Made by a program: the position numbers and the translations under genes | In this document: piece by piece, positions 616 through 48,709 of the stretch | Layout of the letters: the number at the start of each line of letters is the position of its first letter | Numbering within the stretch: the stretch's first letter is position 1 | Notes under the pieces: model-generated | What the model saw: only the letters and a program-made list of their open reading frames with translations | What the model was told of the DNA's origin: nothing | Databases searched by the model: none | Assembly: GCF_036365525.1 (NCBI RefSeq) | Contig: NC_090404.1 | Span: 3,224,001 to 3,288,000 of the forward strand | Length of the DNA: 64,000 bases | Source: Heterodontus francisci | Lineage: Eukaryota | Direction of reading: 5' to 3'

Positions 616-675
616 TGGGTTCCACGATTAGTCTGGTCCCACTTCCAAAAATAAACTTGAAGTTTCCATCCCTCA
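616..675 (-). CDS. TRAJ: J w1 RDGNFKFIFGSGTRLIVEP (family A)
   Basis: RSS cacagcg 676-682 /12/ acaaaaact; donor GTAAG. Confidence 0.9.
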
Positions 676-850
676 CACAGCGCTACACTGCCTAACAAAA
701 ACTTACTGTGTTAATTATTACTCTTTGTCTAATTTACCATTGCAATTTAAAGTAAACAGACACCACTTTAACTTATTCATTTAACACAAATATTTTCATC
801 TACCTCTTTATCTCTATTTACCTACATATAGGAATAATAACTTAGTGCTT

Positions 851-1830
851 CATACGAACATACGAATTAGGAGCAGGAATAGGCTACTCGGCCCCTCAAG
901 CCTGCTCCACCATTCAATAAGTTCATGGCTGAACTGATTACTCTACATTTCCACCTACTCCAGATAACCTTCACCCCCTTGCTTATCAAGAATCTATCTA
1001 TCGCTGCCTTAAAAATATTCAAAGACTCTGCTTCCACCGCCTTTTGAGGAAGAGAATTCCAAAGACTCAGGACACTCTGAGAGAAAAACAAATCTCCTCA
1101 TCTCTGTCTTAAGTGAGCGACCCCTTATTTTTAAACAGTGACCCCCAGTTTGAGATTCTCCCACAAGGGGAAACATCCTTTCCACATCCACCCTGTCAAG
1201 GCCCCTCAGGATCTTATATGTTTCAATCAAGTCGCCTCTTGCTCTTCTAAACTCCAGTGGATACAAGCCTAGCATGTCCAACCTTTCCTCATAAGACAGT
1301 CTGCCTATTCAGGTTTAGTCTCGTAAACCTTCTCTGAACTGCCTCCAAAGCATTTACATCCTCCAGATGTAGTCTCACCAATGCCCTGTATAACTGAAGC
1401 ATAACCTCCCTACTTTTGTATTCAATTCCCCTTGTGATAAATGATAACATTCTAATAGCTTTCCTAATTACATGCTGTACCTGCATACTAACCTTTTGCA
1501 ATTCATGCACTAGGACACCCAGATCCCTCTGCATCTCAGAGCTCTGCAATCTCTCACCATTTAGATAATATGCTTCTTTTTTATTCTTCCTGCCAAAGTG
1601 AACTATTTCCCACTTTCCCACATTATATTCCATTTGCCAAGTCTTCACCCACTCAATTATCCCGTCGGAGCCTCCTTATGTCCTCCTCACAAGATACCTT
1701 CCTACCTATCTTTGTATCATCAGCAAATTTAGCTACCATACCTTCATCTCAGTCATTTATATAAATTGTAAAAAGTTGAGGCCCCAGCACAGATCCCTGT
1801 GGCACACCACTCGTTACATCCTGCCAACCA
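851..1830 (-). mobile_element. 5'-truncated CR1-type LINE (end of RT ORF2 plus 3' UTR)
   Basis: ORF pieces WQMEYNVGKW...RDLGVLV and RRARGDLIETYKIL; (TTCGTATG)n tail at 851-866; absent from the paralogous 1.45-kb units. Confidence 0.9.
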
Positions 1831-2291
1831 GATAGGCACATAGATATATAAATATTTAGAGGCATCAGTGAATATCAAAAGATAACACTTGAGAATCATA
1901 TTTACTTAATATTGATGAATTCATTTAAACATTATTATAATATTACATTCCACAGAATTTACACCACAGAAGCAGGCTTTTCCATCCAACTGGTCTATTC
2001 CAGTGCTTCTTCTCCACACGAGCTTCCTCCCACCCCTTTCATTTAATCCTATCAGGGTATTATTATATTCCATGGCCTCTTCTATACTTATTCAGCTTCC
2101 CCTTAAATCCATACATGCTCCTGGCCTCAACTATCCATGTGGTATCAAGTTGCAGACTACAAAAAGAAGTGTTACAACATTCAGGAATGTTGAACATATA
2201 GAGAAATGATCTGTTTCAGTGTAGGCAGTACAGAGAACAGACACATGTATGTAAGTAGATAGTTAGTCTATAGATATTAATGAATACCTAC

Positions 2292-2351
2292 TTGGCTCCA
2301 CAGTTAACGTTGTCCCTTTTCCAAATATGAGTTTATCACGAGCTGCATTCA
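2292..2351 (-). CDS. TRAJ: J w2 NAARDKLIFGKGTTLTVEP (family D)
   Basis: RSS cacagca/12/gcaaaaacc; donor GTAGG. Confidence 0.9.
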
Positions 2352-2862
2352 CACAGCATTGTATCCTTTAGCAAAAACCCCCTTCAGATTTACTGTGGTG
2401 TTTTATTTGCTCACTCTGGCAACTGTATTTGAATAGTTGGTGTAGTCCAATGCCATAATACTGACACTATCTGTACAAATCATTGACATTTATTAGACAT
2501 ATTTATTTTAATGATTCTGTTTTTCACGCAAGCATGACTGATTTTTCTTGAAAAAGCTAAGGCTACAATTTACAAATCAGTCTTTCTGAATGCTTTCCCA
2601 GTACTCCTGAAAGTGCAACCAATACTTTCCTGAATTATCATCCTGGATTATATATTTCATAGGCAGTGTGTGGATACACATCTCACAATTTCCTAACCAA
2701 CAGGATGGGCTGTTAACAATTGAATCAGGTTAGGATTTCTGATATGCAACAATAGGTAACAATAAACAATCGAATTCTTTTATTTTATAGATTATTCATG
2801 AAAATTCTTTAATTTCTTTCAATCAAATTTGTGACATTATTCTTTCGTAAGACAACACTTAC

Positions 2863-2922
2863 TGGGTTCCACGATTAATCTGGTCCCACTTCCAAAAATA
2901 AGATTTAAGTTTCCATCCCTCA
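2863..2922 (-). CDS. TRAJ: J w3 RDGNLNLIFGSGTRLIVEP (A)
   Basis: RSS cacagcc/12/gcataaacc; donor GTAAG. Confidence 0.88.
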
Positions 2923-3543
2923 CACAGCCCTACACTGCATAGCATAAACCTTCTGTGTTATTATTATTCCTTGCCCATTTTACCATTGCAATTTAAATTA
3001 AACAGACACCACTTAAACTTTTTCATTTTACATGTATATTTTCATCTACCTCTCTATCTCAATTTATCCAGGATAGGAGTTAAACCTTTTGTGATTCATG
3101 TATTGCATAAGCAGCCACATTGATACATAAATATATAAAGGCATCCAGGCATACCAAAATCTCTCCCTTGGCAATTATATTTGCTGAATGTTGATTGATT
3201 AATTTCAACGTTATAATAATATTACATTACAACTAATGTGCAGCACATAAACAGATTGTTCCTTCCAACTGGTCTATTCCAGTGTTTCTGTTCCTTAGGT
3301 GCTTCCTCTCACCCACTTAATCTAATCCTATCATTATAATTTTATATTCCTTATGCCCTGCTGTAATTATCCAGCTTCCCCTTAAATATATCGATGCTAC
3401 TCACCTCAACAACCCCATGTGCTATCAAATTACAGACTCCAAAATAACATGTTACAATTTTCAGGACTGTTGAAGATATAGAGAAATTAAATACACATGT
3501 ATGGAAGTAGATAGATAGTCTACAGTTATTAATGAATACCTAC

Positions 3544-3606
3544 TTGGCTCCACAGTTAACTTTGTCCCTTTTCCAAAGATGATCTTATAGCTAGCTCCAG
3601 TGTTCA
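3544..3606 (-). CDS. TRAJ: J w4 NTGASYKIIFGKGTKLTVEP (D)
   Basis: RSS cacagca/12/gcaaaaact; donor GTAGG. Confidence 0.9.
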
Positions 3607-4316
3607 CACAGCATTGCATCCTTTAGCAAAAACTCCCTGTAGTAATTTGTTTGCTTCTTCTAGCACTTAAATCTTAATACTTGGCATCATACAATGCCAT
3701 AATGATGTCTCCATCTGTCCAAATTGTTTTTACATGACCATTGACATTTATTAGGCACATCTATTTTTAATTATTGTTTTTAATGCAAGAATGACTAATT
3801 TTGCATTAAAAAGCTAAGTCTTTGATTTATACAACAGTCACTCCGAATGCTTCCCCAGTACTTCTGAAAGTGCTATGCTCTCTCAGTGTTTTTCTGAATT
3901 ATCATTCTTGATTATATATTTCATATTTAGTGCATGGATACATCTCACAATTTCGTATCAGATAGGATGGGCTGTTAACAATGGAATACAGTTATGATTC
4001 CTGACACTTTTCCCTCCCAATTTCAGGCAGTTCTTTCACTAATGAAACCTTAGGTTGTTCTATTGAAATAGTATTTATTTATTATCCTGTAGTTAACCTC
4101 AATGGCTGGTAGTTATGTTCCAGATTATTACCAGAATCAGTATCTTTATTATCATTGAGGTAGAGTTGTAGATGACATTTGGAATTTGATATAAACACCA
4201 TGCAGCTAACTAACAATAAACAATTTCATTGTTCTTTCTTCTGCATCATTCATGGCAATTCTTTAATTTATTTTCAATCAGATTTGTGACATTCTGCTTC
4301 ATAAGACAACACTTAC

Positions 4317-4376
4317 TGGGTTCCACGATTAGTCTGGTTCCACTTCCAAAAATAAGCTTGATGCCTCCAGTATTCA
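4317..4376 (-). CDS. TRAJ: J w5 NTGGIKLIFGSGTRLIVEP (A)
   Basis: RSS cacagcc/12/acaaaaacc; donor GTAAG. Confidence 0.9.
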
Positions 4377-5003
4377 CACAGCCCTACACTGCCTAACAAA
4401 AACCTTCTGAGTTAATTATTATCCTTGTCTATTTAACCATTGTAATTTAAGGTAAATACCACGACTTAACTTTTTCATTTCACATTTATATATATTTATC
4501 TAGCTCCCTATCTCTATCTACCCACACAATTATGTTGCATGGACAGCCACAACGATACATAAATACGTGGAGACATCGATGCAAATTAAAAGTCAACCCT
4601 TGTCAATTATATTTGCTGAATAGTTGATTAATTAATTTTAACATTATAATAATATTACGTTGCAAAGAATTTACCCAAGAGAAACAGGCTTTTCCATCCA
4701 ACTGGTCTATTCAGCATTTCTGCTCCACACACGCTTCCTCCCACCCTCTTTCTCTAATCCTATAAGGATAATCTTCGATTCCCGTCTCCCTGTTCAACTG
4801 ATCCAGCTTCCCCTTAAATGTATCCATTCTACTCACCTCAACTACTCCATGTGGTGTCAAGTTACCAACTCCAGAATGAAATGTTACAATTTCCAGGAAT
4901 GTTGAACATATAGAGAAATTATTTGATTGATTGTTGGCAGTACAGAGAACAGATACATATATGCAAGTCGATAGATAGTCGATAGTTATTAACGAATACC
5001 TAC

Positions 5004-5066
5004 TTGGCTCCACTGTTAACTTTGTCCCTTTTCCAAAGATAAGCTTAACGCCAACTCCAGAATCCA
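5004..5066 (-). CDS. TRAJ: J w6 DSGVGVKLIFGKGTKLTVEP (D)
   Basis: RSS cacagca/12/gcaaaaact; donor GTAGG. Confidence 0.9.
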
Positions 5067-5783
5067 CACAGCATTGCATCCTTTAGCAAAAACTCCCTTC
5101 AGATTTACTGTCGTATTTTATTTGCTCATTCTTACAACTGTATTTTAATACTTCGCATCGTCCAATGCCATAATAGTGACACTATCGGTATAAACTGTTT
5201 TTACATGTCCATTGACATTTATTCGGCATACCTATTTTCAATTATTCTATTTTTCACTCAAGAACAACGCATTTTGTGGTCAACAGCTAAGGCTTCGATT
5301 TATATATCAATCACTGAATGCTTTCCTAGCACATCTCAAAGTGCTACACTCTCAGTGTTTTCCTGAATTATCATCCTGGATTATATATTTTATATGTTGT
5401 GTGTGGATACATCTCACAATTTCCTAAGAAACAGGATGGTCTGTTAACAATGGAACCCAGTTATGATTCCTGAAACATTTCGCTCCCAATTTCAGGCAGT
5501 TCTTTCGTTAATGGAACCTTAGGTTGTTCTATTGAGATTGTATTTCTTTATTATCCTGTAGTCAACATCAATGGCTGGCAATTACGCATCAGATTATTAC
5601 CAGAATCAGTGCCTTTAATATAATTGAGGTAGAATATAGATAACATTTGGAATTTGATATACACACGATGTAACTAAATAACAATATGCAATCTAATTGT
5701 TCCATTTTCTAGATAATTCATGACAATTCTTTAATTTCTTTTCAATCAGATATGTGACATTTTTTTCATAAAACTTCACTTAC

Positions 5784-5843
5784 TGGGTTCCACGATTAGT
5801 TTGCTCCCACTTCCAAAAATAAGGTTGTCAGCTGCAGTATTCA
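5784..5843 (-). CDS. TRAJ: J w7 NTAADNLIFGSGSKLIVEP (A)
   Basis: RSS cacagcc/12/acaaaaacc; donor GTAAG. Confidence 0.9.
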
Positions 5844-6488
5844 CACAGCCTTACACATCCTTACAAAAACCCGCTGAGTTTATTATTATAGTTCTTTGTC
5901 CATTTTACCATTGCAATTTAAAGGAAACAGCAACCATTTTAATTTTTTTCATTTCACACATGTATTTTCATCTACCTCTCTATCTCTATCCATCTACATC
6001 TAGGAATAATAACTTAGTGCTTCATGTGTTGCACAGACAGCCACATTGATACATAAATATATAAAAGCATCAGTGCATATCAAAAGCCATCCCTTGGCAA
6101 TTAAGTTTGCTGAATCTTGATGAATTAATATTAACACTATAATAATATTATATTACACAGAATTTAAACCAGAGAAACAGGCTTTTCCATCCAACTGGTC
6201 TATTCAGCATTTCTGTTCCACAGGAGCTTCCTCCCACTCTCTTAATATAATCTTATCAGGGTATTCTTATATTCCTGTCTCCCTGCTGTACTTATCCAGC
6301 TTCCCCTTAAATCCATACATGCTCCTTACCTAAATGTGATAGCAAGTTGCCAACTCCAAAATGAAATGTTACAATATTCAGGAATGTTGAACATGTAGAG
6401 AAATTGCTTGGTTAATTGTTGGCACTATAGAGAACAGACACATGTATGTGAATCGGTAGATAGTCTATAGTTATTAGTGAATACCTAC

Positions 6489-6551
6489 TTGGCTCCACCA
6501 TTAACTGTGTCCCGCTTCCAAAGATGAGCTTTTCGCTACCAGCAACATTCA
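6489..6551 (-). CDS. TRAJ: J w8 NVAGSEKLIFGSGTQLMVEP (D)
   Basis: RSS cacagca/12/gcaaaaaca; donor GTAGG. Confidence 0.9.
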
Positions 6552-7272
6552 CACAGCATTACATCCTTTAGCAAAAACACCCTTCAGATTTACTGTAGTA
6601 ATGTTGTGCTCATTCTGACAACTATATTTGAATACTTGGCATCGTCCAATGTCATAATACTGACACGATCCGTACCAACTGTTTTTATATATTCATTCAC
6701 ATAGATTAGGCATATCTATTTTTAAATAGTCTGTTTTTACGCAAGCATGACTGATTTTGTATTAAAAAGCCAAGGCTTTGACTTATGTATCAGTCCCTCT
6801 GAATGCTTTTCCAGTAATTCCCAAAGTGCTACACTCTCTCAGTGCTTTCCTGAATTATCACCTGGATTATATATTTCATATGTAGCGTGTGGATACGTCC
6901 CACAATGTCCTAGCAAACAGGATGGGCTGTGAACAATTAAATCCAGTTATGATTCCTGACACTTTTATCTCCCAATTTCAGTTATTTTTTTCATTAATGT
7001 AAGTTTCGGTTGTACTATTGAAATTGCCAATCTTGATTATCCTGTACTTATCCCCAATGGCTGGTAATTATGTTCCAGATTATTACCAGCATTAGTGTCT
7101 TTAATGTAATTGAGGTAGTATGGTAGATAACATTTGGAATTTGATATAAACACCATACAACTAAGTAACAAGAAGCAATCTAATCGTTCCATTTTCTAGA
7201 TTATTCATGACAATTCTTTAATTTCTTTTCAATCAGATTTGTGACAGTATTCTTTCATAAGATAACACTTAC

Positions 7273-7332
7273 TGGGTTCCACGATTAGTCTGGTCCCACT
7301 ACCAAAAATAAGCTTTCTGTTCCCAGTATTCA
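7273..7332 (-). CDS. TRAJ: J w9 NTGNRKLIFGSGTRLIVEP (A)
   Basis: RSS cacagcc/12/acaaaaacc; donor GTAAG. Confidence 0.9.
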
Positions 7333-7979
7333 CACAGCCCTACACTGCCTAACAAAAACCCTCTGAGTTAATTATTATTCTTTGTCTATTTTACCATTAC
7401 AATTTAAGGTAAAAACCGCGACTTTGTTTTTTTTATTTCATCTATATATCTTCATCGAGCTCTCTCTCTATCTATCTGCACATGGGAATAATAACTTTGT
7501 GCTTCATATATTGCATAGATAGCCACAGCAATACATAAATACATGGAGACATCGGTGCAGATCAAAAGCCACCTCTTGGCATTTATATTTGCTAAATGTT
7601 GATGAATTAATTTTAACATTATAATAATATTACATTACAAAGAATTTCCACCACAGAAACAGGCTTTTCTATCCAACTGGTCTATTCCAGTACTTCTGCT
7701 CCACACAAGCTTTCTCCAACCCTTTTTCTCTAATCCTATAAGGATAATCTTCGATTCCCCTCTCCCTGCTCTACTGATCCAGCTTCTCCTTAAATGTATC
7801 CATTCTACTCGCCTCAACTACTCCATGGGGTATCAAGTTACCAACTCCAGAATGAAATGCTACAATTTTCAGGAATGTTGACCATATATAGAAATTATTG
7901 GATTGATTGTTGGCAGTACAGAGAACATGCATATGTATGTAAGTGGATAGATAGTCTACAGTTATTAATGAATACCTAC

Positions 7980-8039
7980 TTGGCTCCACTGTTAACTTTG
8001 TCCCATTTCCAAAGATAAGCTTAAAGCCATCAGCATTCA
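7980..8039 (-). CDS. TRAJ: J w10 NADGFKLIFGNGTKLTVEP (D)
   Basis: RSS cacagca/12/gcaaaaact; donor GTAGG. Confidence 0.9.
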
Positions 8040-9072
8040 CACAGCATTGCATCCTTTAGCAAAAACTCCCTTCCGATTTACTGTACTGTTTGATTTGCTC
8101 ATTCTGACAACTATGCTCGAATACTTGGCATCGTTTAATGCCATAATAATGACACCACCTGTATAAACCATTTTTACATGACCGTTGACATTTATTAGGC
8201 ATACCTATTTTCAATTATTCTGTTTTTGCACTCAAGAATAACACATTTTATGGTCAAAAGCTCAGGCTTCCAATTATAGATCAGTCACTCTGAATGCTTC
8301 CCCAGTACTTCCCAAAGTGCTACACTTTCTCAGTGTTTTCCTGAATTATCATCCTGGATTATATATTTTATATGGAAAGTGTGGATACATTTCACAATTT
8401 CCTGACAAACAGGATGGTCTGTTAACAATCGAACCCGGTTATGATTCCTGACACGTTTATCTCCCAATTTCAGTCAGTTCTTTCATTAATGGAACCTTAG
8501 GTTGTTCTATTGGAATCGCGTTTCTTTATTATCCTGTAGTTTACATTAATGGCTGGTAAATATGCATCAGATTATTACCAGCATCAGTGCATTTAATATA
8601 ATTGAGGTAGAGTTATAGATAACATTTGGAATTTGATGAAAAAAACACCATGTATCTAAGTAATAATTACATCTATGCATAGTCATACTTTTCCTCTTAA
8701 TCCAACTATGCTATTCACATCAACTACTCGATGTAGTAGGAAGTCCAACATTCTAACCACTCTATATAAAATTTCTCCTGAAATGTTTATTGTATATTCC
8801 AGAGACTATCTCAGATTGATGACTCCTAGTTTTGGACTTCCCAACAACTGGGGCATCCGTCTCTTTGTCCACCCTAATAAACTTCTTGTTGATATTAAAC
8901 CCTCTGTCAGATGGCTCCTCACCCTTCTCTTTTCTAGGGACAAGGTCCCCAGGCTGTTCATTCTTTCCTGATAGTTATTTTGTAACTTTAATTGCAAAGA
9001 ACCGACGACATATATCAACAAAACAATGTTTTGACTCTCATCATAAATAATACAGAATTATATTTCACTTAC

Positions 9073-9129
9073 TAGGTTGGACCATTAGTTTGGTCCCAGA
9101 TCCAAATATTAGCTTATCGAGAGTCTTCA
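9073..9129 (-). CDS. TRAJ: J w11 KTLDKLIFGSGTKLMVQP (H)
   Basis: RSS cacagta/12/gcataaacc; donor GTAAG. Confidence 0.88.
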
Positions 9130-9436
9130 CACAGTATCACACACCAGTGCATAAACCGTTTTCCCTGATGCCAAGGATATCCACAACATCAACTCAATGC
9201 ATTATCAATATTCCATGTTAAAATATTAACAAATGCCTAGCTCAATAAAACAAAGTTAGATTCTACCCTTCTCACGCATTAATGCTACACATTCACCGAA
9301 CGTAAAACTAGTTAAATTTTTTCTAGATCGACTTGATGGCTAATCACCAACTGTACATCAGTTTGACCAGAATCTATCATTTGCTTACAAACTAATTTAC
9401 ATGGCCATTTTTGAGGAACAATTATTGAGTTCTTAC

Positions 9437-9499
9437 CAGGATTAACAATGAGTCTGGTGCCTCCTCCAAATATAAATTTACCATATCCTTCAGTATTCA
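9437..9499 (-). CDS. TRAJ: J w12 NTEGYGKFIFGGGTRLIVNP (I)
   Basis: RSS cacagta/12/acaagaact; donor GTAAG. Confidence 0.88.
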
Positions 9500-9699
9500 C
9501 ACAGTAATTTATCCCTTTACAAGAACTCGAGATAGACCTGGTTTGCAATGTACCAGTACAACCACGACTGAATGATCATTACTGTTATTTCAATTACTTT
9601 ATATAACTAAGCAATCTAATCATTATTTTAGCCAGATTATTCATGATAATCCTTTAATTGCTTCCAATCAGCATTATTCTTTCATAACACAACACTTAC

Positions 9700-9759
9700 T
9701 GGGTTCCACGATTAGTCTAGTCCCACTTCCAAAAATAAGCTTGTAGGTTCCGTCCTTCC
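9700..9759 (-). CDS. TRAJ: J w13 KDGTYKLIFGSGTRLIVEP (A)
   Basis: RSS cacagcc/12/acaaaatcc; donor GTAAG. Confidence 0.88.
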
Positions 9760-10385
9760 CACAGCCCTACACTGCCTAACAAAATCCTTCTGAGTTCATT
9801 ACTATTGTCTGTCTTGCTGATGCAATTTAAACAGGCACCCATTTTACCTAAGAAATTAATTTTCTTATATTTTGTGACTTTCTGTCTGTCTACTTGGCTG
9901 ATAATATTCCTATTTATCTATTTGTACTGTGTAATCATTTGTTTATTCTATCCTATCATTCTATGTATGGATCTCCAACCTGGAGGAATAACAAACTATT
10001 GCTTTATGTGTTGCATAGACAGGGACATGGATATACAGATATATAGAGGCATCAATGCACATCATCAAAAGGTATACCTTGTCAGTTATATAGCTAATTT
10101 GTTTAATATTGGTTGACTAATTCCAACATTATAATGATATTTGATTCAACGTAGACCGTCATTCCACCTTATGTCTTTTAGTCTTCCAAAGGTACTATAG
10201 TAGCATCAGATGACCAATGGTAGTGAATACTGATCAATCTATAGAATTGTATTTCGTGAATTGGCCAATCATTTCTATTGGGACAAAGTATTGAGCTGCA
10301 GTTCGGATTTTGTACCTAGCATTCTAAATCGTTTATCTAATACCTATTATGATACATAGTCTTCATGTTATACTTCTAAATTTAC

Positions 10386-10442
10386 CTGGTATTATTGTCA
10401 GCTTGCTTCCAGGGCCAAATCTAAGCTTATTGTCATAATCCA
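10386..10442 (-). CDS. TRAJ: J w14 DYDNKLRFGPGSKLTIIP (B)
   Basis: RSS cacagtg/12/gcaaaaacc; donor GTAAA. Confidence 0.88.
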
Positions 10443-10896
10443 CACAGTGTGATATGTCAGTGCAAAAACCTAATCTGATTCTGGTGCCTAATACTGACTA
10501 GAAACTAGATATGGACATGTTATAGAATTGTACATTTTCACTTGGTGTCATATTATGTGGCAGAAAAAGGCTTGTATTTCCTCACTGTCCCTTCCATTTT
10601 ACATTTATGAATTCCTCTACCCCTTTTCCCCCTCACTTTGTTATAAACTGCTGAATTTCTAACCTCTTCCAGTTCTGATGCAAGGTCATCAGCCTGAAAC
10701 TTTGTTTCACTCTCCACACCCGACTTTCTGATCCTTTCCAGCCTTTTCAGATTTTATTTAAGATTTGCAGCAGCTGCAATGTTTTATTTTCAAGTGTTCA
10801 ATTATCGTTTCCACAAGTCAACTTTAATCATTTTGGTTATGCATATGTCCATGTCCCCCAGTAGTTTATAGATAAATACGTTGACTAAATATTTAC

Positions 10897-10955
10897 TGGA
10901 ATTTACACAGTGATCCCACTTCTAAAGTTGAGTTTAGTTTTGGTTCAAAGAGTCT
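10897..10955 (-). pseudogene. Decayed J (family C), KLNFRSGITV*
   Basis: Paralogous to 27931-27993; FGxG lost, stop codons, heptamer ccgagca. Confidence 0.6.
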
Positions 10956-11654
10956 CCGAGCAATGAGCCCCCTATTAACATCCCATGGTAATAACAAGAG
11001 TTCCAGTTGCACCTCAATACACTTTGTCACTAACTGAACTGAGCTGAAATTAGAATGCAATTATTATAATTTTATTGTCAGGTTGTCACCAGAATAATTC
11101 TACTTCCAAATGATTCTTCCAATAGGATGTATTATATTCTCCAAATACATTTAATTGGTGGCTATAGTCCAGGTTGCTAAAAGCATGAATTTTCCTACAG
11201 ATGTAACTTCATTTGTGGCTTAAGATGTACATATTTAAAATCCCTAGATTGACTTCTGGCCTCATTTACAAATGCAAACCTTTGTGCTCCATTAGCCACA
11301 GTGTCTCATACGTCCATGGAAAATCCATTGTATGACATGTTTCCCTACTTGTAACTACTCCCATTCAGGAGTATTGAACTTCAGGATGGTTAAAACTTAC
11401 ACGTCTTTAAGTCTTTTCAGAACAAAATATAAAAAATACACATTAATCTAATGTTTGACTCTAAAGTTAATAATATTGTTATTTTAACTGTGACAAAATG
11501 AAATAGTGACCACACAATGCAGTGGTATATAGCTATTTTAAATTCTGCTGTCATTGTCTTAGATTTTGCAAAGAATGTCCTTCAGCTACATTCTTCAGAA
11601 ACTTGCACTACCTTAAAACAATGATGTTTGCCACAGAATCGTAGCAACCTTTCA

Positions 11655-12286: not shown

Positions 12287-12349
12287 TTGGTTCCACAGTT
12301 AACTTTGTCCCGCTTCCAAAGATAAGCTTGTTGACACCTCCAACATTCA
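12287..12349 (-). CDS. TRAJ: J w15 NVGGVNKLIFGSGTKLTVEP (D)
   Basis: RSS cacagca/12/gcaaaaacc; donor GTAGG. Confidence 0.9.
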
Positions 12350-38350: not shown

Positions 38351-38413
38351 TCAGTTCAACTGTAAGCCTTGTCCCAGCCCCAAATATCAACTTGAATCCT
38401 CCGACATCACTCA
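38351..38413 (-). CDS. TRAJ: J w51 SDVGGFKLIFGAGTRLTVEL
   Basis: RSS cacatca/12/gcaaaaatc; donor GTAAG. Confidence 0.83.
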
Positions 38414-38879
38414 CACATCATTCAATCTCTTAGCAAAAATCTCCTCGTTTGTAATATGTTCCTGCTTCAGTTTCCGAGTTGCCCCGACAACCATTTTAAT
38501 AAGATCATAAACCCATTGGAAAAATTCTTCAGAAAGAAAACACTTTGAGCTGTTTGTAATAATGCCAAACGCTATCGGATATGACTGTTCAATTCTGTAT
38601 AGGTCTAACCATCCATTTATCTGGGCATTTATGCCGCCCCCCCCCCCCCCCCCATTATCCTTGTTAGTTAGGCATGCAGAATAATATATAACTGCCTTAT
38701 ATCCATCTTTTGCTGGTTTTTCTACCTTGCTGCAATGTCGAAGAGCCGATACCGGTGTCCAGGGAACAATGGAAATGGAAACATAACAAGTCCCACTCTC
38801 TAATATATCCCCAAATCTCAAGCCATTTCACCATGCATCAATCATATTATTAAATAAATGACACGTTTAGGGCACTCAC

Positions 38880-38941
38880 TGGGCTCCACTGTTAGCTTTG
38901 TTCCTTTGCCAAAGGTTAGCTTGTTCACTCCTGAAGTTACA
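38880..38941 (-). CDS. TRAJ: J w52 VTSGVNKLTFGKGTKLTVEP
   Basis: Consensus RSS cacagtg/12/acaaaaacc; donor GTGAG. Confidence 0.92.
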
Positions 38942-39992
38942 CACAGTGTTGTCCTCCCTGACAAAAACCTCAGCACTCTGACCCCCGATTGCATAAGCAC
39001 AAACCTATGCAGTAAGCCAACAATCACAATTATAAAGTAAATCAAGAGAAAATGTTTCCACTGACAGAAGGTTCGGTAACCAGAGTCACAGATTGGAGAA
39101 AAGAGCCAGAGGAGAGCTGAAGATTTTTTCTTGAAGCACAGCGAGCTTATTGTGATCTGAATCTGTCTGAAAGTGTGGTGGAAGCAGATTCAATAGGAAC
39201 TCTAGAGGAATTCTCAAAAGAGAATTGGATAAATAATTGAAGTGGAACAAATACAGGACTGGGGAAAATAACAAGGGAGTGGGATTAATTGAATCGGTCT
39301 ACCAAAGAGCCGCCCCATGCTTGACGGGCCGAACTACCTCTTTTCATTCTGGATCATTCTATCATTCTATGGCCTCGGATTTCCCGCCAGATGACAGCAA
39401 TGACAATTTTCCCCATTCTCTTTCTCACACCTTATAGCCTGTCCACACCAACTTGCTCTAAATTGGGGGACAGGTTGACTAAATGCCCCAACAACTCTCA
39501 TTTAAATGCGTTATACCAGCAGGGCGCTCATTACAGCCTGAAGTACGTTGGGATAAAGGTACAATTGTGAAAACCTAATCCAACTAGCACCTTCCCTTCC
39601 AGTATAAATCAATTCATCTCAATTCTGACCCTTCTGTATTCCCAAAGTGAACTCAGACTCAGCTCTGATATCCATGGGTATATCGTTCCAATTCTGCACT
39701 CGGATATATCCCGTCTATAAATAAAGCTGGGGTATGTATTCAGTTTATTGTACACCATTATATAAATGGGTTACACTGAAATAAGTGGTACATTTTATAC
39801 GCCGCTTTTCTGTTCACTCAGTTTTTTAATGGGATTGGTCTTCCTGATTTTGCATCATGTTTGTAAAAAATGCTGACCAGTCCTAGGACGGAGGTCTGAT
39901 AACTAAATATTCCTAGCTGTTGCACAAATGTTTTGCTTCTTGTAACTTTTATCCAACTGCAAAAACACAAACATAGATCTTCCAATACTCAC

Positions 39993-40061
39993 TCGGTTCG
40001 ACAGTCAGTTTGGTCCCACTTCCAAATATTAGCCTGTTCAGCCCGCCTCCCCCATACTTCA
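39993..40061 (-). CDS. TRAJ: J w53 KYGGGGLNRLIFGSGTKLTVEP (longest J, 69 bp)
   Basis: RSS cacagcc/12/acaaaaact; donor GTGAG. Confidence 0.9.
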
Positions 40062-40650
40062 CACAGCCTCAACTGCCTTTACAAAAACTCAGGTAGGACC
40101 AGTGATCTAGCTTTCTCCCTCTTAGCCTCAGCATAGCTACGGAAAGACCTCAATTAGGTCGCCCCCAGTCTTCTCTCCTCTATAGGATAATCTTCCCAAT
40201 AGGTGTAGCCTTTCAGTTCTGGTAGCATTCCAGTGAATCCATTTTACATGTTCTCTAGAACCTCTATGACCCTTTCTATAATACGGAGACCAGAACTGCG
40301 AGTGTGGTTTAATCAAGGTCCAACACACGTATAACATTCCTCCTGTACTTTTCAATTCTATCCCACTAGAAATAAACCCAAGTGCTTTGTTTTTATAATG
40401 ATCTTATTAACTGAATCTCTTTATTCACTGACTTGTGTATCTGGTTTCTGATTATGTTAAATTTACATATCTATATTTCTTGATGACGCTTTGAAGGAAA
40501 TGCCCCTCTATCGATTTCCAGACTTCTGCAGACTATTCCAACTATGCTGAAATGGTTGAATTCAAATGTTCAACTTACTGCATAAAGCTCTTCCATCAGG
40601 GCAGTAATCTCACACTGGAATCAGTTAGAAAGCAGAACTGGAAAATTCTC

Positions 40651-40710
40651 TGGCTGCCACAGTTAGTTTGGTTCAACTTCCAAATATTGACTTGCTATCA
40701 TCTTCTGATC
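40651..40710 (-). pseudogene. Decayed J, SEDDSKSIFGS*TKLTVAA
   Basis: FGSG changed to FGS-stop, donor GA, no recognisable RSS. Confidence 0.7.
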
Positions 40711-40889
40711 GATAATTCTTAGTCTTTAACTTCTCCTTACAATACTACCACACACAGGCACAAACAACCATCCAGAGGCTGTTCTCTTCCCTTACTGGAG
40801 ACAACAATTGCTTATTTTGGATTCTTACATTGAATTTAAGGAGGAAAGATAAGCATATGCAGCCTCCGTCTTATCCAGTTACATTCAGT

Positions 40890-41247
40890 TGGTGGCTAGT
40901 AACCCAGAGACTTCGACCAGTGCTCTGTGGACATGCGTTCAAATCCCACCACGGCATAAGGTGGACTTGAAATTTAATTAATCAATCTGGAATTTTTTTT
41001 TTAAGAAAACGAGTCTAATATAATCATTGTTGATTGTTGTAAAAACCCATTCGGTTCACTATTGGCCTCAAGGGAAGGACATCTGCTGTCCTTACCTGGT
41101 CTCGCCTACATGTGACTCCAGACTCACAGACTCTTAACTGCCCTCGGAAATGGCCTAGCAAACCACTCAGTTGTCAAAGGCAATTAGGGATGGGCAGCAA
41201 ATGCTGGTCTTGCCAGCGATGCCCACATCCCAAGACAATTTCATTTT
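40890..41247 (+). mobile_element. tRNA-derived SINE (same family as 37118-37483)
   Basis: gcgttcaaatcccaccacggc B-box; shared body gtaaaaaccca..ggttcact..gggaagga..gtgactccagac. Confidence 0.75.
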
Positions 41248-41856
41248 TAAAATCTCCTCCATCGAACTTTTCAGGTTGCATTGCAGTGTTACTGTAAGTG
41301 GAGGGTGTTCTAAATGATTTCTCTAATAGATACTCTGCTGAAGCGTCTGTTATTATATCGGTGGAGTCAATAAAAGTAGAACTTCCATGAACCAGAATAG
41401 CCTCCAATTGAATAGAATGGGGTTCAACTTCGATAATTTAACATATATATAGTCATACACTTCCTGTCAGACTACAATTAACAAATAAGAAGTGTAGTGA
41501 TATTACTCAGATCAGCATCCCATTAGTTTAGAAACAGAAAAGTGTGACACTAGTATATACTATGTAATAAAGCAATTTCTAAAACCGCCTGACAATACAA
41601 GTTGTCAAGCCATTTTTCGACTATTCGAAGAATATTTTGGAGACACTGGACATTTTTGTCCGTTTTTTTCCCGACATGGTGCTACTGAAATATGGCGGGA
41701 GTCAATTACTTGCTAAGTGGTAACCCTCCCGTACCTATCCCTGTTTGTATCTACCTCAACCTTATGATTTTGATTCATTTCATGGTCAACACTCGAGCTG
41801 CAGAGTTCGTTCTATAGTGTGGATACGAATAACACACGATCATACCAACTACTTAC

Positions 41857-41922
41857 TCGGTACCACGGTGACTGTAGTCCCTGAGCCGAAGATGTGCTTA
41901 TTCCCTGTACCTCCATAAGCCA
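41857..41922 (-). CDS. TRAJ: J w54 AYGGTGNKHIFGSGTTVTVVP
   Basis: RSS cacatcg/12/acaataacc; donor GTAAG. Confidence 0.83.
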
Positions 41923-42240
41923 CACATCGATAAACACCCGAACAATAACCTCAAATACAACGCACCATCGCCTCTCATTTGTTCATCTTGATTTCACCTT
42001 ATTCTTTTCACCGGCACAGCCAGTCTGCAATAATATGGCTATTGATTACCTCCAATATACAGTTATTAATTCTATCATTGTGATTAATCACAGACTCAGC
42101 TCCAACGCCAACCCTCTAATTATATTTTGCACGTTTGTATCTTGCTGATATAGCATTCGCCTGTTTATTTGCCAAATGTTACCAATAAGGAAATATTTGC
42201 CGTTTGAACAATTGCCCTCAAATGATTTTCCGATACTTAC

Positions 42241-42306
42241 TGGGTTCGACTGACAATTGCGTTCCCTTTCCAAATATTAACTGGCCAGCTACTCCTCCAG
42301 CATTCA
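42241..42306 (-). CDS. TRAJ: J w55 NAGGVAGQLIFGKGTQLSVEP
   Basis: RSS cacattg/12/acaaaaacc; donor GTAAG. Confidence 0.9.
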
Positions 42307-42895
42307 CACATTGTGAAACGCACTTACAAAAACCTCAAGCACTGCAACAGGGAGTCCAATGCGGAACCTCCACGGGGCAGAAGGAAGCCCACTGTACCAA
42401 TGCTGACCCCAATTTCAGATTCTTCAGATCCACGGTAACTTCATCTCAAAGACAATGAATTCATTGGTGCAAACTTTTACATCCCTTGTTCCAGCCCTGT
42501 TGTCTGCTGGGATGATTTGCACCCAGGGTTATTGTCAGTAAAGTACGGCATAATGTTTGAGCATTTGAATTCCCTATGGGAGCTCTGGTTAGGGGAGACC
42601 TAGTTAGCGTTTGGTGAAACCTAACACAAAAATAAACCTTATCTCAGGGTTGCCTGAATTGTTCATTGTTTTCATTATGCTATTCCCATCTTTGCTCCTG
42701 GGCCTGCGTATTTTGTTAAGCATTAAGATCGATAACATGGACTTAACCTGGGTTAAGAAGGCAGCTCACTACCAACTTGGATGGACAAAGATGTTGGGCT
42801 TGTCTGTGCTGGCCATATCCCCAAAATTAATTCATTAAAAAACATCTTTGTGCTGAGAGAAGGAAATGATAAACTATTTACACCTGACAACTTAC

Positions 42896-42958
42896 TGGGC
42901 TGGACAATCATTCTAGTTACAGCTCCGAATGTGAGCTTCCCTGATATTCCAGTCTTCA
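42896..42958 (-). CDS. TRAJ: J w56 KTGISGKLTFGAVTRMIVQP (atypical FGAV)
   Basis: RSS cacagtg/12/acaaaatct; donor GTAAG. Confidence 0.8.
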
Positions 42959-43182
42959 CACAGTGCTAAACTGCTTGACAAAATCTACCCCACGGCAGCT
43001 ATAACGGCAGTTGTATTAACATTCACTCGAATGCTCACTTAGCGTCACTACAGTTGCGCCTTTTTAAGGTGAATTTTTGTTTCCTGTCATTTTCTCTGTT
43101 ATATCAGCGTAAAATCCGCATTTAATAGAACTGGAAAAACGTTTTGATGCCTTTTCCAGCCAGCTCTTGGCATTTTACTTAC

Positions 43183-43242
43183 TTGCTTCTACAGATACCT
43201 TTGACCCGCTTCCAAATGTCAGTTTCATACCTGCATAATCCA
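43183..43242 (-). CDS. TRAJ: J w57 DYAGMKLTFGSGSKVSVEA
   Basis: RSS cacgatg/12/acaataaaa (weak); donor GTAAG. Confidence 0.78.
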
Positions 43243-43309
43243 CACGATGCCAAGTGGCATGACAATAAAAGCGTATTGGTAGAGAAACCCACGTTTGCTT
43301 ATTTTCAGG

Positions 43310-44275
43310 AGCGTAGGAAGAGGAATGGGACACTCAGTCCCTTGAGCCTATCTCGCCATTCTATTAGTTGATGTACCTCAGCTCGATTTACTTGCTCTTA
43401 CACCATCTGTCATGATCCCCTTGCTGAAGATGGGATATCGAAACCGGAATTCAGACCCTCGAATCTAACAGCAATCTAACGGATCACAACGGTTGAGATT
43501 TCAATTTAGCTAATATCTGCTGTCTTTTGGTGAAGGTTTCCAAATTTCTGTGACACTTTTGTGTGAAGAAAGTGCATCCTGATTTTATTCCTAAAAGTGC
43601 TCAGCTCTGAGGCTCGAATCCCTTCTTCTGTATTTCCCCACCAGAGGGAGTAGTTGATCTGCATTTACCGTTTATCGTTTCATTCCCTCGATTCGAGCAT
43701 CCCTCAACCTTCCGAGCTCCAGGGCTGTTTGTTCCATCACTCCCCGTAATGTAACCCTTTGAACCCCGATATCATCCTGCTGAATCTTTTCTACACCCTC
43801 CTCCAAGGCCTGTACATCCCTGCTGAGGGGCAGGCAGTGCCTAAAACTGAATGCACTCCTCCAGAGAGGGTCTGGCCAGGACTCTCTACAATTGAAGCAT
43901 AACCTCCTGGCTTTGATATTCCAGCCCATGTGTGATGAAGAGCAATAGCCCAAATGTTGTTAAACATGTGCACTAATGTTTAGTTCTTTGTCTACAAGGT
44001 TGACTAGATTCCTTGGTTCCTACCCTTCTCCGGGCCTCTCGCCATTAAGAAATTATTTCAATTTGTTTTTCTAGGTGGCAAAGTGAGCGACCTCACCCTG
44101 TGCCACATTGGACTCCATCTGTCACAGCTTTTACCCGTTAACTTAGTCCGTCCATCTCCCTTTGGATTTGTCTGTCATACAACCTAACGTAGTGTCAACT
44201 CAAGCATGGAAAACCAATTCTCCATTCTTTCATCCATGTCATGAACTTATGGTAAAAAGTTGAGACCCCGGACAG
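43310..44275 (-). mobile_element. Old CR1-type LINE fragment
   Basis: Degenerate ORF2 C-terminus (DVQALEEGVEK..LELGRLR) on -. Confidence 0.6.
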
Positions 44276-44636
44276 AGAGTTTCTTTCTTAGAATGTTCTA
44301 ATATTATTTTTGTCAAATGCCATTTCAGTTAGTGGGCAGGGAAGGCAGACAGACAAAGCAATGCAGGGCACTGCCTTTTCAATAACTGAACCTTCTCTCT
44401 GTTGACCACTCTACTAGTAATGAATAACGGACCTGTTTTTTCCTTCAAATGCAGGTAGAGTGTTGTGCTTTAACCCGACTGGCAACACTCTTTGAAAGGA
44501 TTATGTTGTGCTTCTCGAACCTTTAGCATCGTTTTCAGCGCTTTCCCTCTCCCCAATTTCATCCATTTTTTTGTCTATTTTCTCCGCTGCAACTGCCCAG
44601 GGTCAGCAAACACTACGTGTAAATCAAAATACTTAC

Positions 44637-44699
44637 TGGGTACTATGAAGAGTTTAGTTCCACCGCCGAATGTAAGCGTGTCGCTTCCAGTTTGGGACA
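44637..44699 (-). CDS. TRAJ: J w58 SQTGSDTLTFGGGTKLFIVP
   Basis: Consensus RSS cacagtg/12/acaaaaacc; donor GTAAG. Confidence 0.92.
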
Positions 44700-45304
44700 C
44701 ACAGTGTCACAATATAGGACAAAAACCCCGACCCTGCCAAATCACTGCACCCGTGCACCCATCTCCGTCTCTGCATTAGTTACACTTCTCCTTGCATTTA
44801 GCTTTCGCCTTCTGTTCGCTTCCATTTGACTTTCCAACCTAAGCCTCATCCCACCAAGTCAATCAGGTCGCTTTCATACTCGTTTAGAAATATATATGAT
44901 AATGTTTGATAAGAAATATGCAGAATTCCCCAAAAATGTACATTTCAAAATACAAATCGGTAACATCTGACTTTAATTCGAAAGAGCACAGGGGGAAAAC
45001 TGCATTAGAATCTGAACTATGAGTTTTATGCACTAATAATATAATAATGATTTGAATTAAGTGCTATACTCAGTTATTCTTTATTCACTAACGATTAGGT
45101 TATATTTCAAATAATCATGAATGTATGATTTTTCATCGTGTCTATTACCCTCCCGTTTGACAAAGTAGGTGGAAATGTATTTTACTGCGATGGAGTTGGT
45201 ATTGAAGATAACAGCTAGCGTAATCATTAAATAAAGCCTTTGGAGTAATCACTGGACATACATACAGTTCAATCCCGCATCAAACAAAGCCAAAGAAAAC
45301 TCAC

Positions 45305-45367
45305 TCGGTTCTACAGAAAGCTTGGTCCCGCTTCCAAAGATGAGACTGTAACCTGATCCTTGATTCA
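45305..45367 (-). CDS. TRAJ: J w59 NQGSGYSLIFGSGTKLSVEP
   Basis: RSS cacagta/12/acaaaaaca; donor GTGAG. Confidence 0.9.
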
Positions 45368-45694
45368 CACAGTAAAAAACACCACAACAAAAACATAACC
45401 AGCACACACCTTGCCTATGGTAATCGTATTTCTTCCAATGAATTTGATGTATAGCAGAACGATGATGATAAAGAAAGAACGTGAAAATATATAGCGATGT
45501 TAAAGACTTCAGGACAACACACAGCGCTTCAAATCCAATTGAAGTACTTTTGTTTTGAAGTGTGGTATTCATACTGTTATTATCCGCATTGTCATCCTCC
45601 GAATCTCCTTCATGCATTTTGCATTTGACCCTGTTCATTGTTATTGCTGTTTCTCTGAATTCTAATGTACATTTTGGACCGAGCGTTTCCAAAA

Positions 45695-46077
45695 GGGTGG
45701 AATTTTAACTGTGGATGAAAGGGAGAAATGTGCGATGTTGCATGAGCCGCCCATTGTACGCCCGCCCGATTTTCCTTCCTCACGGACTTCAGTAGAAAGG
45801 AAAATCGGGCGAGGTGTAAAACAAGCCGCAGATTCTACATCGCCTGGGGCTGAAGTCCACCCCGGGCGGCGGCGCAGAACAGGCGATGTCAGATTGACTA
45901 CTTGCTCTCTGTGCAGCTCTTGACATTTAGTTCCATTGCAGTCAATCCAACGGAATATCAGGCGCTCCAGATAATGGGCAGCCAATCCAATACCGCCACT
46001 TTTGCGTCTCTGCTAGAGAGAACTTTCACCGCCTTCCCACCCATTTGCACCAGGTGCCCAAAGTTAAAATTTACCCC
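45695..46077. mobile_element. Putative MITE (non-autonomous DNA transposon)
   Basis: GC-rich island bounded by imperfect 16-bp inverted ends gggtggaattttaact / agttaaaatttacccc (13/16); internal perfect 15-bp inverted repeat. Confidence 0.55.
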
Positions 46078-46294
46078 ATTGTTTGCACAAGGGGAATGGC
46101 ACATTCATACACATTTCACTCCCAAGTTCACAACTCCAACTTGCTTTTATATATCATTACCTTAGCAACCCGTCCCAAGACACTTACAGAAGCAGTACCT
46201 AACAAAAGGTGGCACCAAGACCCATAAAGATATATCAGGATAGAAGACTAAAACACCTGGCCAAAGAGGTAGGTTTTAAGCGGTGGTTAATGTA

Positions 46295-46540
46295 GAATCT
46301 ATCTATCTTTCTAGCTATCCTTCACTCTTTCTATCGTCTCTCTCTATCCAGTTTTCCATCTATCCTTCACTCTTTCTATCCTTCTCTGATTCTATCCAAC
46401 TTTCTCCCTTTCATTTTCCTTTCACCCGCAACCAGAGGAAATAGTCTTCCCGAATTTACTCTTTCTAATCCCTTCATAATTTTATAAAATTCTATTAAAA
46501 TTCCGCTGCCCTCTCCAATTTACTGGAAATAGACACAATA
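46295..46540. repeat. CT-rich simple repeat plus CR1-derived block, duplicated at ~47345-47655
   Basis: Shared ctttctcccttt..cagaggaaata..ccgaatttactc..cccttcataa..ctggaaata.acacaata. Confidence 0.7.
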
Positions 46541-46826
46541 GCGAGTTGAAGAGCTCTGGGGAGGGAATTCCAGATTTTGGGGCCAAGGCAGATTAAGGCA
46601 CGGCCTCGGAGGGGATTTTAACACACGGATGTGAATTTTAAAATGAGGACGGCATCCCTTTCTGAATTATCCCTTATAATGTCCCATACCTGGACGGAAA
46701 TATAGTGAGAGATGAAGAGGCGGTCCCATCTGGACCTTGCTTTGCTTGGGCAGTTGCTTCGAATTTTCACGGAGGAAAGGGATCCACTGCACTACTTTCA
46801 CTGTGTAGACACTGAAATCGACTTAC

Positions 46827-46892
46827 TGGGTTGGACTGTGAGAGTGGTCCCACTCCCAAAGCTCGTCTTCCATCCTCCTGTTCCTATATTCA
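46827..46892 (-). CDS. TRAJ: J w60 NIGTGGWKTSFGSGTTLTVQP
   Basis: RSS cacagca/12/acaaaaaga; donor GTAAG. Confidence 0.87.
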
Positions 46893-47178
46893 CACAGCAG
46901 TTCAAGCCCTGACAAAAAGACTCTGGTTTCACAGCGTCAACCAACCCAGAAGAGCAGCAACACAAGACAAACAGAGAACATGTTATAAAGTCTGGGAGTT
47001 GTTGCTAAAAAGGAAAAATGGGTGTGAGGGAGGAGGGGTGAGCGGATTGGGATTTCAACTAACTAGAAGAAGAAGCTCAGTTGATAAGCATGTCGGCGCT
47101 GCCTGGACTCCGCGCTTGTTCCAGTACAGCCACATTTTAACGTGGAAGCAGCCGCGGCAGAACATCTTAAACACTTAC

Positions 47179-47239
47179 TTCACCAACAGCTCCGTTCCAC
47201 TTCCAAATGTTAGTTTGTGACCAACTGCTCCAGAAATCC
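47179..47239 (-). pseudogene. TRAJ: J w61 ISGAVGHKLTFGSGTELLV, donor in the wrong phase
   Basis: Ends GTG AA|GTAAG (phase 2, 5 nt short); RSS cactgtg/12/gcaaacaaa. Confidence 0.75.
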
Positions 47240-47819
47240 CACTGTGCTGCAAAGCTTAGCAAACAAAAAAACTGGATGACGTCCAGATGGTCAACCTGAA
47301 TAACCCATCAGGAAACATCCTGTAATAGGAGTTCTCTGAGTTTTGTTTTCTATCTATCCTTCTCTCTTGCTATCTATATATTTCTCTCTCTCTATCTATC
47401 TTTATATCTATCCTTCACTCTTTCTTCCCTTCTCTCTATCTATCCTTCTCTCTCACGATCTATCTTTCTATTTATCTTTCACTTTTTCTATCCTTCTCTG
47501 ATTCCATCAAACTTTCTCCCTTTTATTTTCCTTTCTTTCCCAAACAGAGGAAATAATTTTTCCGAATTTACTCCTTTTAAACCCTTCATAACTTAATAAA
47601 ATTCGATTGAAATTCCACCGCCGTCTCCAGTTTTCTGGAAATAAACACAATACCTTAGATTTCTCCTCCAAACGCACTCTTGATCCTTTCCCCCCTTATT
47701 GTCTCCCATCAGTTATGCCTGGATTTGCATTCCAGTTATTGTATACAATGACTTCTGGATCAGACACCTTGTATATTATTTACACCAGGAAGAAACACAA
47801 TAATTTTGCAATTACTCAC

Positions 47820-47885
47820 TCGGTGTTACCAACAGTTTGGTCCCTTTACCAAACTTAAGCGGATCAGCTGCTGATCCAGAAGTCA
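47820..47885 (-). CDS. TRAJ: J w62 TSGSAADPLKFGKGTKLLVTP
   Basis: RSS cacggtg/12/acaaaaacc; donor GTGAG. Confidence 0.9.
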
Positions 47886-48550
47886 CACGGTGTCACATAC
47901 ATTAACAAAAACCTGCAGTAGTGCAATTAAAATCTGTGACCTTGACCATTGAGCTTGCAGTCTCCAACTGCAGTTATGTCATTATTGGTCCATCGCCTCT
48001 AAGTACAGAGGGTAACGGTTAAGTACAACAGCAATCGTGTTTTGTAAGGATCACTGACTCGAAACCGTTAGGACAATTATTTTGTTGCCCTATCGCCGAA
48101 TCAAATGCTTCGATTTCATTCACATTTTCAATCTTCTACTTTTCTGAATTGAACCTTTATAATATCCTTAGTTGGTGAAGTCTCAATTAAAAAACAAACA
48201 CTGGAATTATTATGAATGGGGTTGGACCGCTGGTCACAGGCAAGGGTAGGGGTGGGGGAGGGGGAGGGGGTGAAGCAGTGACTAGGTCAAGCTTGAAGAG
48301 AAAATCGAATAATCAGTTGAGACAAATTCAGAAGCAGATCTTTGGAGAGAGAACAGTTCGTGACCATTGATAGGTAGCTGTAGAGAGGAATAAGCAGGAG
48401 AGTAATGGACTGAATGCCTTGGGCCTTAGTCTTTTACACTTTCATAGTCGGATAGATAATAACTCGATTATCATCAGGATACCTTTTAAAATCTATTTTC
48501 AGAATATCACTTCACCATTTTGGGGCAATAAAGATGAGCAAGGTACTCAC

Positions 48551-48616
48551 TCGGTTCCATTATCAGACTGGTCCCACTTCCCAGCAGCAGTTTGCTGGAT
48601 ACTGCTCCATACTCCA
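48551..48616 (-). CDS. TRAJ: J w63 EYGAVSSKLLLGSGTSLIMEP (atypical LGSG; most 5' complete J)
   Basis: RSS cacagtg/12/tcaagaact; donor GTGAG. Confidence 0.8.
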
Positions 48617-48709
48617 CACAGTGATATCTGTCTGATCAAGAACTGCTGCCCACGAAACAAAAACGAAAACGAGTTCCCTGCCTATGACTTTCTATTCATA
48701 ATGCACATC

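What the first reader, a model, noticed from the sequence alone, without database searches (positions are those of the whole stretch)
616..48644. Large cartilaginous-fish TCR-alpha J array: at least 63 segments, open at the left edge
Seen: 63 RSS-flanked FGxG exons in one orientation, about one per 770 bp, with the duplication pattern running into position 1, so more Js may lie outside the window. Established: 12-RSS J-only arrays of about 60 segments typify TRA and allow successive V-J rearrangement. Inference: this lineage has at least a mammal-sized TRAJ set. These short exons are easily missed by automated annotation.
Basis: partly seen in the sequence, partly recalled or inferred. Interest (0 to 1): 0.7.

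Follow-up and report, generated by a model that had tools for sequence, protein, structure and literature searches.

The report
Shark T-cell receptor alpha J array
This is the joining-segment array of a shark or ray T-cell receptor alpha gene, 109 segments long and spliced to the alpha constant exon in likely RNA data; arrays of this size are already published for other sharks, so it is ordinary, although its duplicated segments differ fastest in the part that likely touches antigen.

Summary
Confirmed, but a known kind. The window holds 64 J segments on the minus strand (57 intact by sequence), all scored with a 12-bp RSS, and none on the plus strand or in 3 shuffles. The array runs 34 kb past the left edge: 109 segments (96 intact) in 82 kb. 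It lies between a C-delta and a C exon bearing the published C-alpha signature. One contig from a likely RNA run reads V, window J 33226-33285, then that exon, in frame, so the refuting result did not occur.

Size is not new: published shark counts are 63, 66, 73, 84 and 156 (PMC10322711, Suppl. Table 4).

Two side results. (1) 80 of 109 Js fall into seven tandemly duplicated families. In 16 independent pairs the CDR3-coding part differs at 25-36% of sites, introns at 18%, RSS at 7% and framework at 8%. This suggests diversifying selection, but gene conversion is not excluded. (2) An inverted second D-J-C-delta unit lies upstream; this scan already noted it from another window of this genome (e1-9964271).

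The parts
616..48644 (-). In-window part of the J-alpha array: 64 RSS(12)-J exons (57 intact) plus 4 decayed copies. Outside the window to the left: 45 further Js and 5 decayed copies (contig C34 about 3190200-3223894), then the three C-alpha exons (C34 about 3183840-3184609). Outside to the right: delta unit 1 (D, 24 J, C-delta; C34 about 3301752-3343717, minus strand) and inverted delta unit 2 (D, 12 J, C-delta; C34 about 3443366-3461951, plus strand)
   Evidence: window; outside
48551..48644 (-). 5'-most J-alpha with RSS: perfect heptamer, LGSG instead of FGxG, intact donor
30875..48644 (-). 5' zone of single-copy Js (the first 23 of the array have no paralogue at 80% or more identity)
   Evidence: family string
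616..30281 (-). Tandemly duplicated zone: families A-G in units of 5-7 Js, collapsing to an A-B doublet repeat near the left edge; continues outside the window
33226..33316 (-). J shown rearranged to a V and spliced to C-alpha, in frame, in a 488-nt contig of run X1
29888..29975 (-). J shown rearranged to a V in frame; one X1 contig splices this J donor to a cryptic acceptor at 29788 instead of to C-alpha
47173..47263 (-). Decayed J: donor 29 nt from Phe instead of 34, out of phase with C

Best explanation
This is the J-alpha array of an elasmobranch TCR alpha/delta locus: 109 segments (96 intact) between C-delta and C-alpha, at least one of them joined to a V and spliced to C-alpha in likely RNA data, and most of them likely made by tandem duplication. 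Mechanism: RAG joins an upstream V (23-RSS) directly to a J (12-RSS), and the J donor splices in phase 1 to C-alpha. The product is shown; RAG's role is established knowledge. V segments on the same strand would join by deletion and remove both delta units; opposite-strand V segments would join by inversion (inferred). A long array would allow successive 5'-to-3' rearrangements (published for other species; not tested here). After duplication the RSS and framework stayed conserved while the CDR3-coding codons diverged faster than introns (shown). Diversifying selection likely contributed, giving more distinct germline CDR3 halves (inferred).
For: Order D-J-Cdelta, then Ja x109, then C, with no V-like place among the 37 found and no D between C-delta and the Js. 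The downstream C reads CLVTDF, the trac signature of PMC10322711; both upstream Cs lack it. All 22 PDB hits for its TM exon are TCR alpha or delta chains; the upstream TM is clearly delta (35 vs 28 bits). C-alpha introns are spliced in X1-X4. A V-J-C-alpha contig is in frame, and its 25-nt tail maps to the first base of the C exon. 97 of 102 Js with a GTG heptamer begin with TG and 99 of 102 keep one RSS frame, the fish TRA pattern of PMC10322711; neither delta J set is TG-dominated. There is one alpha locus: the only other C-alpha is on contig C1869, a 99.997% duplicate. Divergence in 16 pairs: CDR3 core 91/255, flanks 545/3066, RSS 31/448, framework 53/688. Codon positions 1/2/3 differ at 35/34/22 of 85 in the CDR3 core and 6/11/20 of 176 in FR4.
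Against: The TM exon alone does not separate alpha from delta (best delta chain 29.7 bits vs best alpha 28.6), and CLVTDFFP also fits the looser trd pattern. Two searches of the protein collection found no relative of either C exon, so there is no match to a named shark chain. The runs are only guessed to be RNA and come from one sample. Only one contig joins a J to C-alpha, on 25 nt of C, in 6.5 kb tested (10 Js). Both readable junctions lost the TG, so microhomology use is not shown, and nurse shark alpha joins carry many N/P bases (PMC5931798). On selection: pS is also raised in the CDR3 core (0.30 vs pN 0.37). The excess shrinks when the whole 5' part is used (0.25 vs 0.18, higher in 11 of 16 pairs, Wilcoxon p=0.06), the narrower boundary was chosen after a first look, and family C shows no excess in the all-pairs comparison.
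Confidence: 0.95

Rival explanations
1. The array is TRA, but fast CDR3 divergence among duplicates comes from short gene conversions that homogenise RSS and framework and shuffle CDR3 codons, or from slippage and mutation bias, and not from selection for new amino acids.
For: Synonymous divergence is raised in the CDR3 core (pS 0.30 vs flank 0.18) and lowered in the framework (pS 0.14). CDR3 distance is uncorrelated with flank distance in families B and C (rho 0.02 and -0.07). The same CDR3 starts recur in non-sister copies of family B.
Against: Codon positions 1 and 2 vary more than position 3 in the CDR3 core and less in FR4. Shuffling needs pre-existing variety. Counting over multi-hit codons inflates pS (my inference).
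Confidence: 0.4
2. The duplicated zone is partly an assembly artefact, so the true J number is lower.
For: One pair outside the window (-11386 and -15174) is identical in J and in 200 nt of flank. The assembly carries a redundant contig, C1869, over this zone.
Against: 107 of 109 J sequences are unique. Duplicate blocks align at about 74-89% identity, far below what an artefact gives. There is no N in 854 kb.
Confidence: 0.04
3. The Js belong to TCR delta, gamma, beta or an Ig light chain.
For: The TM exon of the downstream C scores as well against delta as against alpha, and its C1 domain's best PDB hits are Ig chains.
Against: Delta has its own D-J-C units upstream. There is no beta or gamma among the 22 TM hits. 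The C has one C1 exon followed by a TM exon with Arg and Lys. It carries the trac signature and sits in the trdc-(traj)n-trac order.
Confidence: 0.02

Closest known systems
Shark J-alpha arrays in Giorgetti et al. 2023, Nature (PMC10322711; seen: passages, part 1 of 8 of Suppl. Table 4 and its 10 cartilaginous-fish rows; 8 of 19 supplementary files were outside the first search, one of which I then opened)
   Same: trdc-(traj)n-trac order; FGxG 34 nt from the donor; TG at the J start; fixed RSS frame (0.92-0.97 there, 99 of 102 here); density about one J per 0.9-1.3 kb there and 0.76 kb here.
   Different: 109 Js (96 intact) against 63 nurse, 66 catshark, 73 zebra, 84 brownbanded bamboo and 156 epaulette shark, so inside the range. 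Their search finds about 80% of expressed Js, so counts are not strictly comparable. I saw no analysis of duplicate families or of selection on J paralogues in the passages read.
Elasmobranch antigen-receptor complex, Flajnik et al. 2025 (PMC12227049; seen: abstract, section 6, passages, all of Table S1)
   Same: Ig-type V (TAILV), then TCR-delta, then TCR-alpha, as listed for catshark and stingray, with NARTCR segments further upstream as listed for stingray.
   Different: Table S1 lists one delta-constant model each for catshark and stingray and none labelled for the other two species. This genome has two, inverted. The table is built from automatic gene models and lists no J segments.
Nurse shark TCR-alpha, Ott et al. 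2018 (PMC5931798; seen: passages)
   Same: [quoted passage not shown]
   Different: cDNA-based; I saw no germline J map in the passages read. It reports extensive N/P addition and somatic hypermutation, neither tested here.
Selection on human TRAJ alleles, Mantena et al. 2025 (PMC12393570; seen: abstract and outline)
   Same: Germline J-alpha sequence as a target of selection.
   Different: Allelic balancing selection in humans, not divergence among young tandem duplicates.

Membership tests
TRAJ (TCR alpha J array) | 12-bp-spacer RSS 5' of each J; partner V with 23-RSS | tested here: met
   (one 13-bp spacer among 109); V segments with 23-RSS upstream
TRAJ (TCR alpha J array) | FGxG motif 34 nt before a GT donor | tested here: met
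   96 of 109 pass all tests, 57 of 64 in the window
TRAJ (TCR alpha J array) | Lies between TRDC and TRAC with no D in between | tested here: met
   the D scan found only 2 D segments in 664 kb, both ahead of the delta Js
TRAJ (TCR alpha J array) | Downstream C is C-alpha | tested here: met
   CLXTD-F signature, position, alpha/delta-type TM. The TM alone is not discriminating, and no named shark protein was found
TRAJ (TCR alpha J array) | V-J rearranged and spliced to C-alpha in transcripts | tested here: met
   one contig for 1 of the 10 Js in the stretch laid; a second J rearranged to a V; the runs are guessed to be RNA
TRAJ (fish type) | TG microhomology start and fixed RSS frame | tested here: met
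   97 of 102 and 99 of 102; use of the microhomology in joins was not seen in 2 of 2 junctions
TRAJ (TCR alpha J array) | Successive 5'-to-3' rearrangement driven by a TEA-like promoter | not testable with these tools
   needs thymus repertoire and germline-transcript mapping
TRDJ | D segment upstream and splicing to C-delta | tested here: not met
   C-delta lies 5' of the array; delta has separate J sets
TRB / TRG / Ig light chain J | Adjacent C of beta, gamma or light-chain type | tested here: not met
   TM exon with Arg and Lys; all 22 PDB hits are alpha or delta

The most novel reading that the evidence does not exclude
Shark J-alpha arrays grow by tandem duplication of multi-J cassettes, and the new copies are pushed apart by positive selection on a few germline CDR3 codons while RSS and framework are held fixed. 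This would be germline-level repertoire evolution that offsets microhomology-limited junctions, a step beyond the published idea that J number alone compensates.
Probability: 0.4. Interest if true: 0.5.

Novelty: new member of a known kind. Interest (0 to 1): 0.25.

Why it matters
As an annotation it gives a full germline J-alpha set for one more elasmobranch, needed for repertoire and TCR-alpha hypermutation work. It does not change what is known, since large shark arrays are published. The more useful part is that 80 of 109 Js are young duplicates with alignable introns. That makes it directly testable whether germline CDR3-alpha codons evolve under diversifying selection.

Tried and rejected
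Protein-collection searches with each C exon against longer proteins gave no hit at E of 0.001 or less; this is weak evidence and was not used. PDB searches with the C1 domains returned Ig chains among the best 60 shown and do not type the chain. Laying contigs on the C-alpha plus 3 J stretch showed C-alpha splicing, but repeats swamped the J-C joints. No RNA holder is on record as RNA; uncovered Js are not evidence of silence. A third loose end matches the J at 2351 with one non-germline base after it, which is too weak to count. C1869 was considered as a second haplotype or second locus and rejected (1 mismatch in 32,567 nt). An inverted V between C-delta and the first J was not found. My first divergence test picked pairs on the same flanks it measured, so it was replaced. 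There, pairs were chosen on a distal flank, limited to intact, equal-length, in-frame copies with distal divergence of 0.22 or less, which left 32 of the 80 family members. No tree-based count of synonymous and non-synonymous changes was obtained, so the selection claim rests on pairwise counts. Germline RAG cutting as the source of CDR3 change is unlikely, because the first two bases next to the heptamer are almost invariant. Deiss 2019 and Ott 2021 were not held, so they could describe shark delta J numbers or a second C-delta. Seven paper searches listed nothing on selection among shark J-alpha paralogues or on an inverted second shark C-delta; I judged this from listings only, and the library lacks most subscription papers.

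Full report
Observation. A strict RSS-plus-FGxG search seeded a position-weight model. It finds 64 J-like exons on the minus strand of the window, from 675-616 to 48616-48551, none on the plus strand, and none in 3 shuffled copies. 61 of 64 carry FGxG and 57 pass all tests of intactness; mean spacing is 761 bp. An HMM adds four decayed copies.

Surroundings. The window is G000:C34:3224001-3288000 of a 6.0-Gb assembly. I fetched 200 kb to the left and 590 kb to the right. To the left lie 45 more Js, giving 109 over 82 kb, 96 of them intact. After 5.6 kb comes a constant gene: a C1-set exon (Pfam E 1.9e-8), a short connecting-peptide exon, and a TM exon with Arg and Lys. To the right, 15 kb of mostly repetitive DNA fills the rest of the window (71% matches repeats). 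Beyond it lie a second constant gene, 24 Js, a 12/23 D segment and antibody-type V segments. Further out are a mirror-image D, 12 J and C unit on the plus strand, TCR-type Vs in both orientations, and two VNAR-like V segments (one tested: best PDB hits are shark VNARs), each followed by a J of a different type. The NARTCR and TAILV labels come from comparison with Table S1 of PMC12227049 and from recall.

Which chain. The left-hand C reads CLVTDF, the trac signature used in PMC10322711, and sits in the canonical trdc-(traj)n-trac order; the two right-hand Cs lack that signature. The unit-1 right-hand TM matches human delta better than alpha (35 vs 28 bits). The left-hand TM matches alpha and delta about equally and nothing else among 22 hits, so it excludes beta and gamma but does not by itself prove alpha. 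In four likely RNA runs of one sample, both C-alpha introns are spliced at GT-AG, each in 3 of the 4 runs. In run X1 a 488-nt contig reads V end, window J 33285-33226, then the first 25 nt of that C exon, in frame. A second contig shows the J at 29947 joined in frame to a V, and one contig splices that J's donor to a cryptic acceptor 99 nt downstream. The genome has one alpha locus: the only other C-alpha and family-B RSS copies are on a redundant 32.6-kb contig.

How it works. V (23-RSS) to J (12-RSS) joining by RAG and splicing to C-alpha is the established TRA mechanism, and the product is seen here. 97 of 102 Js with a normal heptamer start with TG and 99 of 102 hold the RSS in one frame. 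This is the fish pattern that PMC10322711 links to microhomology-guided joins. Both junctions I could read had lost the TG, and nurse shark joins carry many N/P bases, so restricted junctions are not shown for this species. Successive rearrangement and deletion of both delta units on same-strand V-J joining are inferred from layout.

How the array grew. The first 23 and last 5 Js are single-copy; 80 of the 81 between them fall into seven families arranged as repeated 5-7-J cassettes, with a run of A-B doublets across the window's left edge. Duplicate blocks are about 74-89% identical and 107 of 109 J sequences are unique, so the expansion is real; one identical pair outside the window could be very recent or an artefact. 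In 16 independent pairs chosen on a distal flank, differences per site were 0.357 in the CDR3 core (91/255), 0.178 in flanking introns (545/3066), 0.069 in the RSS and 0.077 in the framework end; 13 of 16 pairs had core above flank. With the whole 5' part the figure is 0.25-0.27 and 11 of 16 pairs (Wilcoxon p 0.04-0.06). Codon positions 1 and 2 exceed position 3 in the core, and the reverse holds in FR4. Against a simple selection reading, pS is also high in the core (0.30 vs pN 0.37) and low in the framework (0.14), CDR3 and flank distances are uncorrelated in two of four families, and family C shows no excess over all pairs. Gene conversion is a live rival. I put diversifying selection at about 40-50%.

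Comparison with what is known. Suppl. Table 4 of PMC10322711 gives Ja counts for 5 of its 10 cartilaginous fishes with usable data: 63, 66, 73, 84 and 156, and about 100 for zebrafish and carp. PMC5931798 already says sharks have many alpha Js, and PMC13433984 (passages seen) argues that large J numbers offset stereotyped joins in teleosts. The array is a new member of a known kind. The inverted second delta unit (two C-delta in the genome, 57% identical; collinear at roughly 70-85% over about 60 kb) is not in Table S1 of PMC12227049. It lies outside this finding, however, and this scan has already reported it (e1-9964271). I could not test its expression.

Verdict. Interest 0.25.

Noticed in passing
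G000:C34:3405000-3467300 (+), about 117-179 kb right of the window: Inverted duplicate of the delta unit (antibody-type V segments, D, 12 J, intact three-exon C-delta), collinear with 3296-3395 kb at about 70-85% identity, with no J-alpha or C-alpha behind it.
   Followed up: partly
G000:C34:3309399-3343385 and 3443687-3457737: Many delta Js (24 and 12; 16 and 9 intact), also in alternating duplicated types; they lack the TG start of the alpha Js.
   Followed up: partly
window 48551-48644: The 5'-most J has a perfect heptamer and donor but LGSG for FGxG. This recalls (from memory) the non-functional first J-alpha of mammals used in delta-deleting rearrangement.
   Followed up: no
window 51122-51973 and about 48740-48920: A 59-70-bp minisatellite has degenerate copies directly upstream of the first J, split from the main array by a 2.1-kb repeat insertion (48943-51090). 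It lies where a TEA-like promoter would be expected (recalled).
   Followed up: no
window 29507-29888: An X1 contig splices the J donor at 29888 to a cryptic acceptor at 29788 and reads on into the intron.
   Followed up: no
G000:C34:3653-3698 kb: Two near-identical NARTCR-like cassettes (VNAR-like V, distinct J, supporting TCR V).
   Followed up: partly
G000:C1869:1-32567: Redundant contig, 1 mismatch against C34:3178800-3211366; it would inflate C-alpha and J counts in automatic annotation.
   Followed up: yes
G000:C8:117.0-124.9 Mb: At least 26 similar C1-set exons in a tandem array, probably Ig clusters, found as weak hits to C-alpha.
   Followed up: no
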